Below, in pieces: positions 9,359-36,147 of a stretch of 51,111 nucleotides of DNA. Where the stretch lies: sequence record NC_049816.1, one strand, 5' to 3'. The DNA comes from Escherichia phage tunus. A program made the translations under genes and the position numbers. The stretch's first letter is position 1; each line of letters begins with the position of its first letter. Below the pieces are notes generated by a model. It saw nothing but the letters and a program-made list of their open reading frames with translations, was not told where the DNA came from and did not search any database.

Positions 9359-12040
9359 TCAACCTCGCTTGCTCATAACAAATTCGTAAACCTCGCCGCC
9401 CTGCATACAGGAACGTTTAATCATATCAGTAAAGATCATCTTAACACCAGTTTCGATGCCCTTCGGATCGTTTCCGTTAGTGATGCTAACATCAATCCCG
9501 CCGATGTTAAATTGAGGTGCTCCACCAGTTACAGCGCCACCGCCAGTATAGCCGGAACTACCAACAACGCCGCCGTTAGCATAGCCTCGCATCATGCGGT
9601 ACAAGTTTCCTACCCCGATACGCTGCGTCGCCTCCTTCGTCATGACAAATTCACCTTTATGGACAATTCCGGCTGGCTCATACTTCCCGCCGTCGCCAGT
9701 GTATCCACCGCCAGCAAATCCGCCAATATTCTTAAGCAAGCTCCCCATCGTCCAGGTTTGACCACCCATCAGGCCAGATAACGCATTAAAGACAACCATT
9801 TTCGTAATCATCTGAATAATCATTTTGATGATAGCCGTCGAGAAGTCTTTAAAGTTTGCCTTGCCAGTAGCGATAAAATTCGCTAATTGGTTTGTAAGGC
9901 CGTTTAACGCCTCGCTTGCGATCTGCTGAACATTGCCATAGGCATTGTTTGCATCTTGCGCGAACATCTCCCATGCGTTTTTTGCTCCTGCCAACCAGTT
10001 GCCTTGAACCTCATCCTGTGTCTGATAATACTGCTTAAGTTTCGCCTCCATTTGCTGAAAAACTTCATCGCTAACGCTTCCGCCTTGCGCCTCGTAGTCG
10101 GTGCGCAGCTTGCGTAACTCTAGCTCACGCTCGATCTGCTTTTCAGTGTAGCCAAGTTGCTTAAGGCCAAGCACATCAATAGCCGCCTGAGTTTCACGGA
10201 TAAACTTAATGCTATCTTGCTCCAGCTTGTTTTTGCGCTCCTGTAAAACAATCTGATCCCCTAGCTCCGCTTTTTGCCTTGCCATTTCAAGAACGGCTTT
10301 TTGCTCGTTTAGTAGCGCCTGTTCCGCTCCGGTCAATTTACGCTTGCTCTGCGCTTCCTCCAGGATCTCGATCTGCTTTTCGATACTCCATAATGATTTA
10401 CGCTGGCGAGAAATAACATCGTTAACAGTGCGATGCTCTTTAAGCATCTCCAGTTGCGCTTTTAAAACGTACAACTCTTTATCAAGCTGCTCAGTCGGGC
10501 CGCGAACTATTCCACCTTTAGCCTCTTTCTTTTTCTGCTCCTGCTTCTTGATTTCCTCAAGCTCTTTGCGCCTAAACTCCACGTTTTCAGCCGCGCGCTT
10601 TTTCAGTTCTTCATCAGCCGAACGCGCCACATTTTTCTGATCCTCAATAGCTTTGTTTAAAGCCTCCTGTGCTGCGCGCACTCTGTTTAAGGCCAGGTTT
10701 TCTTTGTCGATTCGCTCCGCTCGTTCCGCCATGTCCTTATTCGCATCTTTTACGACCTTTCCAATGTCTTCATAAGTGTTAAGTGCAAACTTAAGCATAG
10801 GGTTAACATAGCCAAGCTCCTTACCTAACAGGCCGCCGGACGGGGAAGCGTAATCACGCTTCGCTTTCAAAACCTCATACCACGAATCGCCCAACTCAAG
10901 GACTTTGTTTTTGTGGTTTGCAATTTCGTTATTCAAGCTGACAAAGCTAGACGCGCCCTTGTACTCGTTGACTTTCTTTTTTGCGTCATCATAAGTCATG
11001 CCAACGTCAACCAGTTTTTTAATCGCCTCGCTCGCGCCGTCTTTCGTAGTGATGTAAGCCTTTGCAAGATCTTCGGCGCTTTCGCCTGTCTTGTCGGAAA
11101 GCTCCTGTATTCCGGTAGCAATCTTTTCGGCAAAATCACCAGTCAAGCCAGTTGTTTCCTGAACGGTTTTTTTAATTGCCTCAAACTCTGTCTGTGTTTT
11201 GTAGGCATTATATGCAGCAATTGCCAGCGTACCGGAAAGCAAGCCAAACGCCACGTTTACCGGATTCAGGAAAGATAGCAACGCTTTTAAAGCATTGGAT
11301 GCGCCACCAAAAGAATCCTTAATCTGTCCGCCCTGCTGGATTGCGACCAACCAAACAGGCATTCCAGAAGCAAGTGAAGTCACCACGTCTGTGATCTGCA
11401 TTGGCAATTGCGCCATTGCTTGTTTGTATTGGCCCGTAGAAATTCCAAGTTTTTGGATCTGCTTTTCCTGCTCTTTCAGCCTTGCGATGTAAGGCGCTGC
11501 CTCCTGGCTAACACCAAGCTGTGCCGCTTTCATTTCCAGCAATTCAGACTTGCTTTTTCCGGCTGCTTCTTCCTGCTCACGCAAAGCCTGGACGAATTTT
11601 TTAGCCTCTTCCGCTGCACGCGCTTTGTTCTTTGATTCCTCAAGCGCCGCGCGGCCTTCCTCCGTCATCGCTTTTTTTGTTGCGATCAGCTTGTTTTGCT
11701 GCGTCTCAAGAATTGATCCAAGCTCAAAAAAAGTCTCATCAGGAACAATGCCCTTTTTCCATAGCGCATCAAGCTGTGTCGCTGCCTTTCGCAGCTTATC
11801 CATCTTTGACGCGGTGGGATCAATTGACTCCTGGATTTTCTTAAATTCTGCTTTCTGGCGCGCCAGTTCTTCGGCAAACTGTTTTGCTTGCTGTCGCGCC
11901 ACAACCTCAGAATCAACAAATTCATTAACGCTTTTTTTTGCGTCGTCGTTTGCCTTCTTGAATTGCTGCAATGATTTAACAGCATTGTTGACCTGCGACA
12001 CGTCAACGCCTAGCGTTAGGCCAGCGTATTTTTCAGCCAT
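9359..12040 (-). CDS. Tail tape measure protein
   Basis: 893 aa, long coiled-coil, Gly-rich C-terminus; RBS GGAGG; follows the G/G-T chaperone. Confidence 0.9.
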   Translation of the reverse strand: MAEKYAGLTLGVDVSQVNNAVKSLQQFKKANDDAKKSVNEFVDSEVVARQQAKQFAEELARQKAEFKKIQESIDPTASKMDKLRKAATQLDALWKKGIVPDETFFELGSILETQQNKLIATKKAMTEEGRAALEESKNKARAAEEAKKFVQALREQEEAAGKSKSELLEMKAAQLGVSQEAAPYIARLKEQEKQIQKLGISTGQYKQAMAQLPMQITDVVTSLASGMPVWLVAIQQGGQIKDSFGGASNALKALLSFLNPVNVAFGLLSGTLAIAAYNAYKTQTEFEAIKKTVQETTGLTGDFAEKIATGIQELSDKTGESAEDLAKAYITTKDGASEAIKKLVDVGMTYDDAKKKVNEYKGASSFVSLNNEIANHKNKVLELGDSWYEVLKAKRDYASPSGGLLGKELGYVNPMLKFALNTYEDIGKVVKDANKDMAERAERIDKENLALNRVRAAQEALNKAIEDQKNVARSADEELKKRAAENVEFRRKELEEIKKQEQKKKEAKGGIVRGPTEQLDKELYVLKAQLEMLKEHRTVNDVISRQRKSLWSIEKQIEILEEAQSKRKLTGAEQALLNEQKAVLEMARQKAELGDQIVLQERKNKLEQDSIKFIRETQAAIDVLGLKQLGYTEKQIERELELRKLRTDYEAQGGSVSDEVFQQMEAKLKQYYQTQDEVQGNWLAGAKNAWEMFAQDANNAYGNVQQIASEALNGLTNQLANFIATGKANFKDFSTAIIKMIIQMITKMVVFNALSGLMGGQTWTMGSLLKNIGGFAGGGYTGDGGKYEPAGIVHKGEFVMTKEATQRIGVGNLYRMMRGYANGGVVGSSGYTGGGAVTGGAPQFNIGGIDVSITNGNDPKGIETGVKMIFTDMIKRSCMQGGEVYEFVMSKRG

Positions 12041-12079
12041 TTTAAAACCTCCAGATATTAAAAAAGCGCCTCGCGGCGC

Positions 12080-12714
12080 TTATGTTTTGTTTGAATGAAT
12101 CATTTCTAGCGCCTTTTGTTCCATGATGCGCAAATCATTTAGCGCCATCTCCCGATCCTCAATCTTGTAAATGTCAAAAAGCATAGGCAAAACGTTATAG
12201 TCGAACCCATACACACTGCCGCTAGTCGATCTCCATTGCGTCTGCATAGCGCAAAACAGATCCCAAGATTGAAACATTGATTCATCAAAAATTACCTCCG
12301 GCGGCTCCTCCCCTTCGTAGTCTGAACGGGATAGGCCGACGGCCTCTAATTGTGCGTCAGTTGGCGGCTTGAGGTAAAACAGGTAAACCGCCCGCTTTAG
12401 TTTTTTACCCGCTGCCCCGCAAGTGCTTTCATATAATGACCAGTCAGCGATAATGACGCAGACGGGTAATAATCCAGCAATTTAGCAACGTTTTCCTCGT
12501 TAAATTCATCTTCCAGATCCCAACCGGAAGCAAGGAAGGTGATCATTTCTACGTCGCTCATCGGCTTTTCTGCCGTGTATCGTTCGTGAATTTCGCTTGC
12601 CTTCTTGTGGCGCACGGTAAAAACAATAACTTGCTCATCACCATTTGGAAGCACGAAAGAAACAGGCAGCTTAAAATCAGGCAGTGGGCCTAACGTTAGT
12701 TTCATCTTTGCCAT
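12080..12714 (-). CDS. Tail assembly chaperone frameshift product (G-T-like, -1 frameshift near 12400-12406)
   Basis: The -1 frame is open from the slippery site A_AAA_AAC to stop at 12080 and joins the track ORF 12080..12277. Confidence 0.6.
12397..12714 (-). CDS. Tail assembly chaperone (gpG-like)
   Basis: 105 aa, RBS AAGGAG; slippery heptamer sits at its 3' end. Confidence 0.7.
   Translation of the reverse strand: MAKMKLTLGPLPDFKLPVSFVLPNGDEQVIVFTVRHKKASEIHERYTAEKPMSDVEMITFLASGWDLEDEFNEENVAKLLDYYPSASLSLTGHYMKALAGQRVKN
12400..12406 (-). other. Programmed -1 ribosomal frameshift slippery heptamer A_AAA_AAC
   Basis: Zero-frame codons GTA AAA AAC TAA at the end of the G-like ORF; conserved position in siphovirus tail operons. 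Confidence 0.6.
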
Positions 12715-12785
12715 CTTAAGATCTCCTTATAGCACTTTTTGTTAAAAGTGGAATTAATTTATTTGATAGATTGATTTTACAGGAA

Positions 12786-12815
12786 TGAAAAAAGGGGCGC
12801 AACGCCCCTTGTTTT
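12786..12815. terminator. Intrinsic terminator (bidirectional hairpin)
   Basis: GGGGCGcaaCGCCCC flanked by A8 and T-rich runs, between major tail gene and G gene. Confidence 0.6.
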
Positions 12816-13476
12816 ACTTAACGTCGGAAGGTAAGAACGTGAATCGGCCTTTCAGAGATACAGAAAGGGAAACAGTTTCCATTTCGTTCATAGTGGTTTG
12901 CGGAATGTCATTAAAAGACAATACGCCAGCCCAGCAACGCATCTCTTTAGCTTTCGGCACGTACATACGCAAAGCGGTTACGTCGCCGGATTCCTCAGCC
13001 TCGCGCAAGATCGGATAAATCGGGTTATCATATTCATGAGCGAAAGTGTAGGTAAGAGAAACCGCGCTCTTGTAGGTCGGTAACTGCTGCTCCTGGTCAT
13101 CAGCCAAACACTGATAAGTGTAATACTGTTGCTCGCCGCCGTCCTGCGCAAGATCCTGTACGCAAGGAACCTCTACCCAAGATTTCACTTCTCGGAAAGT
13201 TGCTGTGTTCTGCCCTTCTGGAAATACGTTTGTATCTTTAGTGCTAACACCCTCAAGAGTAACACTTACATTATCTGATACTTCCTTAACTCGAAGCACT
13301 CGACTAACAAGTTTGCCCCAAGAAGATGTTTCAATAAGAACATAAGCGCCTTTTTTGATGCTTTGAGTGTTTTCGGTTGTAAAAACAGGATTATCAGCAT
13401 TGCTGATTTGAGTCGCGCTAATTGGCTCACCCATATTAACGCCGATGAAAATTTGAGAACCATTAGGCAAGTGCAT
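12814..13476 (-). CDS. Major tail protein (tube)
   Basis: 220 aa, strong RBS AAGGAGG; position immediately upstream of the G/G-T chaperone. Confidence 0.65.
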   Translation of the reverse strand: MHLPNGSQIFIGVNMGEPISATQISNADNPVFTTENTQSIKKGAYVLIETSSWGKLVSRVLRVKEVSDNVSVTLEGVSTKDTNVFPEGQNTATFREVKSWVEVPCVQDLAQDGGEQQYYTYQCLADDQEQQLPTYKSAVSLTYTFAHEYDNPIYPILREAEESGDVTALRMYVPKAKEMRCWAGVLSFNDIPQTTMNEMETVSLSVSLKGRFTFLPSDVK

Positions 13477-25296: not shown

Positions 25297-25342
25297 ACTT
25301 TACCAAATGCCCTTGCGGAAGTTTTAACAAAAAGTGCTATTA
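25297..25342 (-). promoter_or_regulatory. Phage promoter module (box + 19-bp hairpin spacer + TAAAGT)
   Basis: Box AAATAGCACTTTTTGTTAAAA read on minus strand; spacer palindrome AAGGGCA...TGCCCTT. Confidence 0.5.
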
Positions 25343-28147: not shown

Positions 28148-28303
28148 ACGAACGCATAACGCTGTTACATCCTTCCCACTATCTGACATGTGGAGAATAA
28201 CTTGCTTTCGCGCCTCCTGGCATCTTGATTCGCCGTGGAACTCCTGCGACTCAATAGCTGCGGAGTTGTAACTTGTGACAAAGATTAAAAGCAACCAAGT
28301 CAT
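28142..28303 (-). CDS. Hypothetical microprotein (53 aa) with hydrophobic N-terminus
   Basis: ATG at 28303 overlaps HAD gene stop (ATGA); 3' end overlaps the promoter box; below track cut-off. Confidence 0.25.
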   Translation of the reverse strand: MTWLLLIFVTSYNSAAIESQEFHGESRCQEARKQVILHMSDSGKDVTALCVRK

Positions 28304-28839
28304 TTTAAACACTCCACGCCGTGAGATTGCAGGTGAGCGTGTGGCTTGTCGTATTCCGTGACCTGATAGGTTGTGATCCCCAGGCTGCGGAAGTGCTTAA
28401 CCACGTTCGGCGAATCGTCAAAGGCGCAAACAATGCTGTCCAGGCCAATGGCGCGCAAGGCTTCTTCTTTAATAACCGTATCCTTTCGGTTGTCCTCCTG
28501 GCGGCGCATGATGATTTCGTCAAACTTCACACCGTTCTCATTCAACCATTTGCAGGTTTTATAGCGAACCTCGTCGCTACGTCCGGTCAAGATGACGATG
28601 GCAAATCCCGACACCCATAAACCGTTAATAACCGCGATAGTGCTTTTAATCGGTGAATCTCCGGCGGCGGCCCTGTTAAACTCGCGCCACGATTCCGTAA
28701 GGTGCAAGTTTTCAGTTGGCAGCAAATGCAAGCGATGCGATCCGTCCGATAATGTGCCGTCCAGGTCAACGATAACAATCGGCTTGCTGGTGATTAATTC
28801 GTACTTTTTGCCCCACAGTTCGAAAGTGTATTTTTTCAT
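28300..28839 (-). CDS. HAD-superfamily phosphatase (polynucleotide 3'-phosphatase / nucleotidase-like)
   Basis: 179 aa; HAD motif I IVDLDGTLSDG; ATGA-coupled to upstream gene. Confidence 0.7.
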   Translation of the reverse strand: MKKYTFELWGKKYELITSKPIVIVDLDGTLSDGSHRLHLLPTENLHLTESWREFNRAAAGDSPIKSTIAVINGLWVSGFAIVILTGRSDEVRYKTCKWLNENGVKFDEIIMRRQEDNRKDTVIKEEALRAIGLDSIVCAFDDSPNVVKHFRSLGITTYQVTEYDKPHAHLQSHGVECLK

Positions 28840-30642: not shown

Positions 30643-30688
30643 ATTATGCCTGGTTATCGCTTTTGAGTTTTAACAAAAAGTGCTATTT
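30643..30688 (-). promoter_or_regulatory. Phage promoter module (box + 19-bp spacer + CATAAT)
   Basis: Exact box AAATAGCACTTTTTGTTAAAA on minus strand. Confidence 0.5.
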
Positions 30689-35396: not shown

Positions 35397-36107
35397 ATGT
35401 ATAAAGGTTTAATATTCTCCCTATTTGATGGATCTGGTAAAGCCGTTAAAGATTGGGCTGATAATGGCTATAAGTGCATTTGCTTTAATGCTGACGGCGG
35501 CGATCACGGTGATTACCAGTCAGTGCGCATACAGCATGAGAATATCGAATACGTTAACGTCTGGATTGATGATGCTTTTTATGTTAAGGCAATCAATAAT
35601 GAGTGGGGCAATCCTGATTTTATTATGGCCTTCCCACCATGCACCGACCTTGCAAATAGCGGATCTCGCCATTGGGCTAAAAAGCGCCTTAAAAATCCAT
35701 CTTTCCAGGATGAGGCCGCCGACACTTGCAGAATCGCGGCTGATATAGCTGATTATTTCGGTGTTCCATACATGATCGAAAATCCGGTTGGCAAGTTGTC
35801 AACGTTATGGCGAAAGCCTGATTATACGTTCCATCCGTGCGATTACGCTAGCTATCTGCCGGAAGATGATAAACATCCCGACTTCCCTGATATTATTCCG
35901 GCGCGGGATCGCTATTTTAAGAAAACATGCCTCTGGACTGGCAACGGCTTTGTTATTCCTCCACGCGCTTTAATCCTGCCGAAAGAGAAAGACAAAGATA
36001 ATCCAGGCTGGGCCAAAACTGGCGGCAATTCATCGCGCACAAAGATGATCCGCTCCCTCACTCCGCGCGGCTTTGCTCGCGCCGTCTTTGAGTCAAACTC
36101 AAAATAG
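35397..36107 (+). CDS. DNA cytosine-C5 methyltransferase-like protein (short, core motifs only)
   Basis: ATG at 35397 with RBS GAGGT; motif I-like FSLFDGSG, motif IV-like FPPC, motif VI-like ENPVGKL in canonical order and spacing; no obvious target-recognition domain. Confidence 0.55.
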   Translation: MYKGLIFSLFDGSGKAVKDWADNGYKCICFNADGGDHGDYQSVRIQHENIEYVNVWIDDAFYVKAINNEWGNPDFIMAFPPCTDLANSGSRHWAKKRLKNPSFQDEAADTCRIAADIADYFGVPYMIENPVGKLSTLWRKPDYTFHPCDYASYLPEDDKHPDFPDIIPARDRYFKKTCLWTGNGFVIPPRALILPKEKDKDNPGWAKTGGNSSRTKMIRSLTPRGFARAVFESNSK

Positions 36108-36147
36108 CACTTTTTGTTAAAAGCCAGGTGTAAAAACCTGGCATAAT
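36102..36147 (+). promoter_or_regulatory. Phage promoter module (box + 19-bp hairpin spacer + CATAAT)
   Basis: Exact box; spacer palindrome CCAGGtgtaaaaaCCTGG. Confidence 0.5.

What the first reader, a model, noticed from the sequence alone, without database searches (positions are those of the whole stretch)
12080..12714. Programmed -1 frameshift producing a G-T-like tail assembly chaperone
The G-like ORF ends ...GTA AAA AAC TAA. The heptamer A_AAA_AAC (12400-12406) is a canonical slippery site and the -1 frame stays open for about 107 codons to the stop at 12080, directly upstream of the tape measure gene.
Basis: partly seen in the sequence, partly recalled or inferred. Interest (0 to 1): 0.4.

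Follow-up and report, generated by a model that had tools for sequence, protein, structure and literature searches.

The report
Tail chaperone G/GT programmed frameshift
This T1-like E. coli phage almost certainly makes a longer version of its tail assembly chaperone by a programmed -1 ribosomal slip at A_AAA_AAC, a long-known feature of long-tailed phages that is merely unannotated in this genus.

Summary
On the minus strand a 105-codon gene (12714-12397, Pfam Phage_TAC_4) ends GTA AAA AAC TAA. The heptamer A_AAA_AAC sits at 12406-12400. The -1 frame is open for 106 further codons to the stop at 12082-12080, 39 nt before the tape measure gene.

- The 41 codons after the G stop contain no start codon, yet 36 of them tested show purifying selection only in the -1 frame (pN/pS 0.34, against 1.3-1.4 in the other frames).
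- They carry the start of a DUF1799 domain.
- The two-frame layout recurs in about 1,100 phage records.
- In 90 distinct relatives the synonymous base before the Lys/Gly codon always fits a slippery X_XXY, and a stop follows within one codon.
- In three distant relatives the frames overlap by only two codons, which pins the shift to the heptamer.

The window is a Warwickvirus (Drexlerviridae). The conserved frameshift in T1-like chaperones is already published (phages Stevie, Skenny) and is annotated as a joined CDS in Klebsiella phage Shelby. Records of this genus list two separate ORFs, and the 211-aa fusion is absent from public protein sets.

No experiment exists for T1-like phages. A hairpin 7 nt downstream is suggestive only. 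Verdict: ordinary, already known, low interest.

The parts
12814..13476 (-). Tail tube (major tail) protein gene, immediately upstream of the chaperone pair
   Evidence: Pfam Phage_tail_3 2.2e-62. Annotated as major tail protein in the 100%-identical phage tunus record.
12792..12810 (-). Terminator-like hairpin plus T-run between the tail tube gene and G
   Evidence: A terminator is annotated at the homologous position in T1.
12728..12747 (-). One copy of the 20-bp T1-type dispersed repeat TTTTAACAAAAAGTGCTAT(A/T). Its 3' end overlaps the start of the G ribosome-binding site.
   Evidence: 20 copies in the window against 0.01 expected. A comparable repeat is described for Stevie and T1 (PMC4319613).
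12723..12728 (-). Shine-Dalgarno AAGGAG, 8 nt before the G start codon
   Evidence: Read from the sequence.
12397..12714 (-). G-like tail assembly chaperone ORF (105 aa plus TAA), the zero-frame product
   Evidence: Pfam Phage_TAC_4 5e-31. The exact protein is public as TfmA / tape measure chaperone.
12400..12406 (-). Slippery heptamer A_AAA_AAC, made of the last base of the Val codon, the Lys codon and the Asn codon. The zero-frame TAA follows directly.
   Evidence: It is the only phased X_XXY_YYZ in the overlap in 52 relatives that have a canonical heptamer there. The synonymous base before the Lys/Gly codon fits X_XXY in 90 of 90 distinct loci.
12363..12392 (-). Possible stimulatory hairpin: 8-bp stem GGCGGUUU/AAGCCGCC, 14-nt loop, starting 7 nt 3' of the heptamer
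   Evidence: MFE fold. It is stronger than 99% of synonymous recodings and ranks 2nd of 160 control windows. The dinucleotide-shuffle z-score is only -1.3 and covariation is inconclusive.
12080..12400 (-). T-like extension in the -1 frame (106 codons plus TAA), reachable only by the frameshift
   Evidence: Pfam DUF1799 1.5e-12, starting at residue 23 of the extension. pN/pS is 0.34 in this frame only.
12080..12277 (-). 65-aa ORF annotated separately in GenBank records. Here it is read as the C-terminal part of the T extension, not as a gene of its own.
   Evidence: Its ATG is not conserved and annotated starts differ from phage to phage.
12064..12081 (-). Terminator-like hairpin plus T-run overlapping the T stop codon, before the tape measure gene
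   Evidence: A terminator is annotated at the homologous position in T1.
9359..12040 (-). Tape measure protein gene (893 aa), the presumed client of the chaperones
   Evidence: Pfam TMP_2 1e-36 and Tape_meas_lam_C 1e-21.

Best explanation
Ribosomes translating the tail assembly chaperone gene (12714-12397, minus strand) mostly stop at TAA and release the 105-aa G-like protein. A small fraction slip back one base on A_AAA_AAC (12406-12400). They then continue in the -1 frame for 106 codons and make a 211-aa G-T fusion, ...AGQRVKN-LKRAVYLFYLKPP...

By analogy with lambda, the shared G part would coat the tape measure protein. The T part (DUF1799) would recruit the tail tube protein. The low slip rate would set a high G:GT ratio.

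Shown here: the sequence anatomy, protein-level selection on the -1 frame with no start codon available, nucleotide-level selection on the slippery tetramer, and conservation of the layout.

Inferred: that the shift is ribosomal, its efficiency, the binding partners, and any stimulation by the adjacent stop codon or the hairpin 7 nt downstream.
For: Anatomy and context:
- The anatomy is exact.
- The gene order is tail tube, G, T, tape measure, gpM-like minor tail protein.
- G matches Phage_TAC_4 and T matches DUF1799. The full fusion matches PHROG 17368 end to end (1-209 of the fusion against 1-211 of 213 profile positions, 6e-99).

No independent start:
- There is no ATG/GTG/TTG in the T frame from 12481 to 12278.
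- In 12 Drexlerviridae, the first 36 codons after the G stop give pN/pS 0.34 in the T frame, against 1.29 and 1.42 in the other frames. Pairwise differences by codon position are 705, 578 and 1386. The other frames contain stops.
- The protein alignment is conserved straight across the junction, ALAGQRVKN|LKRAVYL.YQ.PPTD.

Conservation of the layout:
- tblastn with the fusion finds 1,147 phage records. 1,094 of them cover at least 80% of the query. Every listed full-length row matches in two pieces.
- In 97 of 99 fetched loci, 103-107 codons are open in the -1 frame after the G stop.
- In Dhillonvirus and Xanthomonas OP1 the frames overlap by only 2 codons, which are the heptamer itself.

Selection on the slip site:
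- The base preceding the Lys/Gly codon is A in 87 of 90 loci. It is G in the three G_GGA_AAC phages. Neighbouring Ala, Gly and Arg codons use all synonymous forms.

Published context:
- The same frameshift is stated for the T1-like phages Stevie and Skenny. It is annotated as a joined CDS in Shelby.
Against: - No protein-level evidence exists for any T1-like phage that I could find.
- All GenBank records of this genus annotate two separate ORFs.
- The fusion sequence is not in the 15-billion-protein collection.
- A_AAA_AAC is a poor shifter in E. coli.
- About 40% of related loci lack any canonical heptamer. The family-wide mechanism may therefore differ in detail from a tandem slip.
- There is no detectable sequence similarity to lambda gpG or gpT, so the functions of the two domains rest on position and analogy.
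Confidence: 0.9

Rival explanations
1. The downstream frame is expressed on its own, as the separate 65-aa ORF (12277-12080) that GenBank records annotate. No frameshift occurs, and the 119 nt between the G stop and that ATG are non-coding.
For: An ATG exists at 12277, and gene callers and several records annotate it. A GGAGG lies upstream.
Against: - The 'non-coding' 119 nt show purifying selection in the T frame.
- They encode residues 23-41 of the DUF1799 match.
- The GGAGG ends 17 nt before the ATG, which is poor spacing.
- The Met is not conserved: Webervirus has EQT at that position.
- Annotated starts differ from phage to phage.
- The N-terminal extensions of gene-caller ORFs reaching into the overlap are unrelated to one another.
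- In Dhillonvirus and OP1 only two -1 codons, neither a start codon, lie between the -1 frame's opening and the G stop.
Confidence: 0.05
2. The fusion arises by transcriptional slippage. RNA polymerase adds one A in the A6 run, so a fraction of mRNAs carry G and T in one frame and the ribosome does not shift.
For: The site is a run of six A. Adding one A would put T in frame. Two IMG/VR contigs differ in the length of this run, A5 instead of A6, which shows the run is indel-prone at least in sequencing.
Against: - From general knowledge, productive slippage by bacterial RNA polymerase needs longer runs, typically nine or more; this was not tested here.
- Distant homologues use G_GGA_AAC and WaterSpirit uses A_AAG_GGT at the same position, with no long homopolymer.
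- The conserved element is the phased X_XXY tetramer, which is a property of codon-anticodon re-pairing.
Confidence: 0.04
3. The open -1 frame is a chance or decaying feature with no function.
For: The heptamer itself is no more frequent than chance.
Against: The frame is conserved, with domain-level homology, across about 1,100 phage records and several host genera. It shows purifying selection.
Confidence: 0.01

Closest known systems
Phage lambda G / GT tail assembly chaperones (-1 frameshift at G_GGA_AAG)
   Same: Both have two overlapping ORFs between the major tail and tape measure genes. In both, a -1 slip near the end of G appends a T domain. The tape measure protein here carries the lambda-type C-terminal domain. 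The expected logic is a low GT:G ratio, with neither product in virions (PMC5009743).
   Different: The Pfam families differ: Phage_TAC_4 and DUF1799 here, and no lambda gpG or gpT family matched at E up to 1. Profile comparison with lambda gpG and gpT gives probabilities below 1%. The heptamer differs. Here the zero-frame stop abuts the heptamer, whereas in lambda the G and T ORFs overlap by 19 nt. Lambda is experimentally proven and this site is not.
T1-like (Drexlerviridae) tape measure chaperones: Citrobacter phage Stevie, Klebsiella phages Skenny and Shelby
   Same: These are homologous genes in the same family. The authors state a conserved translational frameshift (PMC4319613; PMC6763657). 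Shelby carries a joined CDS named 'tail assembly chaperone frameshift product'. T1 genes 40 and 39 have the identical GCA AAA AAC TAA layout.
   Different: Shelby and other Webervirus have GCA AAA GTT TAA, which is only an A_AAA tetramer and not a heptamer. Records of the genus of this window (Warwickvirus) do not annotate the fusion.
IS1 InsA / InsAB' frameshift
   Same: It uses the same A_AAA_AAC heptamer in E. coli. It is a deliberately low-efficiency -1 shift that makes a small amount of a fusion protein, with no established stimulator (PMC4066793).
   Different: It is an unrelated protein (a transposase) in an unrelated genetic context.

Membership tests
Conserved G/GT-type tail assembly chaperone frameshift of long-tailed phages (Xu, Hendrix and Duda 2004 class) | Two consecutive ORFs located between the major tail (tube) gene and the tape measure gene | tested here: met
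   Tail tube 13476-12814, G 12714-12397, T frame to 12080, tape measure protein 12040-9359.
Conserved G/GT-type tail assembly chaperone frameshift of long-tailed phages (Xu, Hendrix and Duda 2004 class) | The second ORF is in the -1 frame, overlaps the end of the first, and has a slippery sequence in the overlap | tested here: met
   The overlap is 27 codons. A_AAA_AAC at 12406-12400 is the only phased heptamer in it.
Conserved G/GT-type tail assembly chaperone frameshift of long-tailed phages (Xu, Hendrix and Duda 2004 class) | The second ORF has no usable start of its own, yet is conserved as coding sequence | tested here: met
   There is no ATG/GTG/TTG from 12481 to 12278. pN/pS is 0.34 in that frame only.
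Conserved G/GT-type tail assembly chaperone frameshift of long-tailed phages (Xu, Hendrix and Duda 2004 class) | The arrangement and slip site are conserved in relatives despite sequence divergence | tested here: met
   1,094 records cover at least 80% of the fusion query. 97 of 99 loci have 103-107 open -1 codons after the G stop. The X_XXY tetramer is fixed in 90 of 90 distinct loci.
Conserved G/GT-type tail assembly chaperone frameshift of long-tailed phages (Xu, Hendrix and Duda 2004 class) | The fusion protein is actually made, at a low ratio to G, and is required for tail assembly | not testable with these tools
   This needs infected-cell proteomics or genetics. No such data for T1-like phages were found in the literature searches.
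Pfam PF08748 Phage_TAC_4 (tail assembly chaperone) | Score above the curated gathering threshold over the full domain | tested here: met
   107.9 bits against 21.1; residues 1-105 match profile positions 1-124 of 124.
Pfam PF08809 DUF1799 | Score above the curated gathering threshold | tested here: met
   48.0 bits against 26; extension residues 23-101 match profile positions 3-80 of 80.
Lambda gpG / gpT sequence families | Detectable sequence homology to lambda gpG or gpT | tested here: not met
   No lambda-type family appears in the Pfam scan at E up to 1. hhalign probabilities are 0.16% (G) and 0.11% (T). The resemblance is in organisation and mechanism, not in sequence.
Tail assembly chaperone fold | Predicted structure matches solved chaperone structures | tested here: inconclusive
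   The AlphaFold2 model built on a 4-row alignment has mean pLDDT 58, too poor for a fold search. There is no sequence match in the PDB.
-1 frameshift sites with a 3' RNA stimulator | Stable structure 5-9 nt downstream of the heptamer, maintained by selection | tested here: inconclusive
   An 8-bp stem lies 7 nt downstream, at -13.2 kcal/mol. It is stronger than 99% of synonymous recodings and ranks 2nd of 160 control windows. The dinucleotide-shuffle z-score is only -1.3. Covariation is not distinguishable from controls. The stem is absent in Braunvirinae and phiEB49-like phages.

The most novel reading that the evidence does not exclude
In T1-like phages the programmed shift may be, at its core, a single-tRNA P-site slip on a phased A_AAA/A_AAG (or G_GGA) tetramer placed one codon before the stop. 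A 3' hairpin would assist it in some lineages. The full heptamer seen in this window would then be an optional enhancement.

The basis is that about 40% of homologous loci (Webervirus, phiEB49-like, Chambers) keep the tetramer and the nearby stop but have no X_XXY_YYZ anywhere in the overlap.

If this holds, the junction in this phage could read ...VKK-LKR rather than ...VKN-LKR. The family would then be a natural series for dissecting tetramer against heptamer frameshifting.
Probability: 0.25. Interest if true: 0.3.

Novelty: already known. Interest (0 to 1): 0.1.

Why it matters
The main value is correcting annotation. In this genus the essential GT fusion is missing from public records. The 65-aa 'gene' and the 119-nt 'gap' are artefacts of gene callers that cannot follow a frameshift. 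The product names given there ('tail length tape measure protein') are also misleading.

Biologically, the site confirms that T1-like phages follow the near-universal rule for long-tailed phages. It uses a deliberately weak slippery site, which suits a minority product. It opens no new question.

Tried and rejected
- **Word-indexed protein search with the fusion.** It returned only three hits, all gene-caller versions of the T ORF. It did not even return the G proteins that are known to be in the collection. It therefore says nothing about whether fusions exist, and it gave too thin an alignment.
- **AlphaFold2 on that alignment.** Mean pLDDT was 58, so I did not run a fold search.
- **PDB sequence search and NCBIfam.** Neither returned anything useful.
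- **Profile comparison with lambda gpG and gpT.** No similarity was found.
- **Rfam scan of 11950-12850.** There were only sub-threshold sRNA-like matches over the terminator at 12792-12810, and nothing at the shift site.
- **Covariation test of the downstream hairpin across 41 Drexlerviridae sequences.** 68.7% of cells were paired against 65.9% in shuffles, with one clade-level compensatory change. I did not count this as support.
- **Upstream Shine-Dalgarno-like stimulator.** I considered and rejected it. The Gly codon that would supply the G-run uses all four synonymous forms among relatives.
- **Xu et al. 2004 and 2013.** Neither paper is held in the library. What I say about them comes from papers that cite them and from general knowledge.
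- **Other phased heptamers with long -1 extensions in the window.** 1274-1268 was checked and 11731-11725 was inferred from the ORF list. In both, the 'zero frame' is a spurious ORF inside a real gene. Three other sites listed were not resolved: 28309-28303 (ORFs listed but left unresolved), 33208-33202 and 33318-33312.

Full report
**What the window is.** The stretch 11900-13000 is 100% identical to Escherichia phage tunus. It is 99.5% or more identical to the other 29 records listed, including tonn, swan01 and SECphi27, which belong to genus Warwickvirus, subfamily Tempevirinae, family Drexlerviridae (T1-like siphophages). The genes of interest are on the minus strand.

**Checking the observation.**
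- The ORF 12714-12397 encodes 105 aa and ends CAG CGG GTA AAA AAC TAA.
- AAAAAAC occupies 12406-12400 and is phased A_AAA_AAC. The zero-frame TAA follows directly.
- The -1 frame opens at 12481, 27 codons before the shift point, and stays open for 106 sense codons to TAA at 12082-12080. The +1 frame closes after 13 codons.
- A slip would give a 211-aa fusion, ...ALAGQRVKN-LKRAVYLFYLKPPTD...
- The flanking genes are a tail tube protein (13476-12814, Phage_tail_3 2e-62) and a tape measure protein (12040-9359, TMP_2 and Tape_meas_lam_C). A gpM-like minor tail protein follows.

The coordinates and description are therefore right. The heptamer alone means little, with 25 copies in the window against 21.7 expected. 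Its context is what is unusual. Among 60 phased X_XXY_YYZ heptamers that have 60 or more open codons upstream, only three are followed by 100 or more open -1 codons. In the other two the 'zero frame' is a spurious ORF inside a real gene: 1274-1268 was checked, and 11731-11725 was inferred from the ORF list.

**What the two reading frames encode.** The zero-frame product matches Pfam Phage_TAC_4 over its whole length (5e-31, 108 bits against a 21-bit cut-off). The -1 extension matches DUF1799 (1.5e-12), starting at residue 23 of the extension. The fusion matches PHROG 17368, a 213-position profile, from end to end (6e-99). This shows that some phage records already hold a protein spanning both parts.

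**Is the -1 frame really translated, and from where?** By the ORF tool's definition, the first ATG/GTG/TTG in that frame after it opens at 12481 is at 12277. That is codon 42 of the extension. GenBank records of this genus annotate a separate 65-aa or 55-aa ORF from such internal Met codons and leave at least 119 nt 'non-coding'.

That gap is coding. In 12 Drexlerviridae, the first 36 codons after the G stop give:

| Frame | pS | pN | pN/pS |
|---|---|---|---|
| T frame (-1) | 0.76 | 0.26 | 0.34 |
| G frame (0) | 0.31 | 0.40 | 1.29 |
| +1 frame | 0.28 | 0.40 | 1.42 |

Pairwise differences by codon position in the T frame are 705, 578 and 1386. The T frame has no stops in any of the 12 phages, and both other frames have stops in all of them.

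The protein alignment of 19 phages is conserved straight through the junction, and motifs such as LKRAVYL and TQWR persist in distant members. The Met at 12277 is not conserved, and annotated starts of the 'second gene' differ from record to record. When gene callers extend the T ORF upstream into the overlap, the extensions are unrelated to one another. The only way to translate this conserved segment is to enter it from G.

**Conservation of the arrangement and of the slip site.**
- tblastn with the fusion finds 1,147 phage records. 1,094 of them cover at least 80% of the query. Every listed full-length row matches as two pieces in different frames, down to 27% identity in Pseudomonas, Ralstonia and Xanthomonas phages.
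- I fetched 99 related loci. In 97 of them the -1 frame is open for 103-107 codons after the G stop.
- A phased heptamer abuts the stop in 56 loci: A_AAA_AAC in 52 (including T1 itself, GCA AAA AAC TAA), G_GGA_AAC in three distant phages, and A_AAG_GGT in one.
- In Dhillonvirus and Xanthomonas OP1 the two frames overlap by only two codons, which are the heptamer. This pins the shift site.
- Across 90 distinct G-T regions, the third base of the codon before the Lys/Gly codon is A in 87. It is G in the three G_GGA phages. It therefore always allows P-site re-pairing.
- The neighbouring Ala, Gly and Arg codons use all their synonymous forms. A stop follows within one codon in all 90. That is nucleotide-level selection for slipperiness, independent of the protein sequence.

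**Mechanism.** The best reading is a low-frequency -1 ribosomal slip at A_AAA_AAC. In E. coli this heptamer and G_GGA_AAC are of low efficiency. [quoted passage not shown] That matches lambda, where a G:GT ratio of about 30:1 is crucial. In lambda, G binds the tape measure protein, T binds the major tail protein, and neither ends up in virions (PMC5009743).

The functions of the two domains here are inferred from position and analogy. There is no sequence similarity to lambda gpG or gpT, and structure prediction was too poor to use.

Two candidate stimulators were examined.
- **The abutting stop codon.** It is conserved in all relatives. Its stimulatory role is general knowledge and was not tested here.
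- **A hairpin at 12392-12363.** It has an 8-bp stem starting 7 nt after the heptamer, at -13.2 kcal/mol.
  - In favour: it is stronger than 99% of synonymous recodings of the same peptide, and this window ranks 2nd of 160 control windows in the neighbouring genes. Hairpins of different sequence sit at the same place in T1, Dhillonvirus and Pseudomonas phage Medea1.
  - Against: the dinucleotide-shuffle z-score is only -1.3, the covariation test is inconclusive, and Braunvirinae and phiEB49-like phages have no hairpin.
  - I rate it as suggestive only.

**Rivals.**
- Independent initiation of the 65-aa ORF is contradicted by the coding signature upstream of its ATG, by the truncation of DUF1799 it would cause, by the poor SD spacing, and by the lack of a conserved start.
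- Transcriptional slippage on A6 cannot be excluded from sequence. It is disfavoured because homologues use GGGAAAC or AAAGGGT at the same spot, and because what is conserved is a phased tetramer.
- Chance is excluded by conservation.

**Comparison with what is known, and novelty.** This is the classic tail assembly chaperone frameshift. It has been experimentally confirmed in lambda, P2, L5, TM4, phiC31, HK022 and HK97, as listed in PMC5313236. [quoted passage not shown] It is annotated as a joined CDS in Klebsiella phage Shelby.

For Warwickvirus the fusion is simply not annotated. The exact G protein and the 65-aa ORF are in public collections, but neither possible 211-aa fusion is. The finding is therefore correct but already known in kind. 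Its practical value is fixing annotation.

Virion mass spectrometry would likely miss the product, because lambda's chaperones are not in virions. Infected cells should be used, with a protease other than trypsin, because the junction is rich in Lys and Arg.

Noticed in passing
Related loci L005, L012, L020, L070-L101 (Webervirus); L011, L047-L052 (phiEB49-like); L016: About 40% of homologous G-T loci have no canonical X_XXY_YYZ heptamer anywhere in the frame overlap. They have only a phased A_AAA or A_AAG one sense codon before the stop (GCA AAA GTT TAA, GCA AAG GTC TAA, CAA AAG CAC TAA), yet the T frame is fully conserved. This suggests tetramer (single-tRNA) slippage in those lineages. Shelby's GenBank record nevertheless annotates a frameshift product.
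   Followed up: partly
L028:1480-1560 and L068:1480-1560 (IMG/VR contigs): Two contigs have A5 instead of A6 at the slip site (GTA AAA ACT AAA), which puts T in the +1 frame relative to G. L028 also has further frame disruptions near the T / tape measure junction. These are probably homopolymer sequencing errors, but natural variants are not excluded.
   Followed up: partly
window, 20 sites, e.g. 12728-12747(-), 25322-25341(+), 30668-30687(+), 36103-36122(-): The 20-bp repeat TTTTAACAAAAAGTGCTATT occurs 20 times (0.01 expected). The copy at 12728-12747 lies on the coding strand just ahead of G. It corresponds to the unexplained dispersed repeat reported for T1 and Stevie. It contains a TGnTAT extended -10-like core, so it may be a promoter element.
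   Followed up: partly
window 12792-12810(-) and 12064-12081(-): Terminator-like hairpins bracket the G-T pair, one after the tail tube gene and one overlapping the T stop codon just before the tape measure gene. Terminators are annotated at the same positions in T1. They may step down expression from tube to chaperones to tape measure.
   Followed up: no
GenBank records of tunus, SECphi27, T1 RefSeq and others (L001, L003, L019): The G ORF and the short downstream ORF are both named 'tail length tape measure protein' in several records, apparently from PHROG labels. PHROGs 17368, 569 and 680 carry that name although the proteins are chaperones.
   Followed up: no
window 28300-28312(-): A 179-aa minus-strand ORF (28839-28300) ends with a phased T_TTA_AAA directly before its stop, and a 56-aa ORF follows in the -1 frame with its own GTG at 28312. 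It looks like ordinary overlapping ORFs. It was not settled which strand is coding in this region.
   Followed up: no
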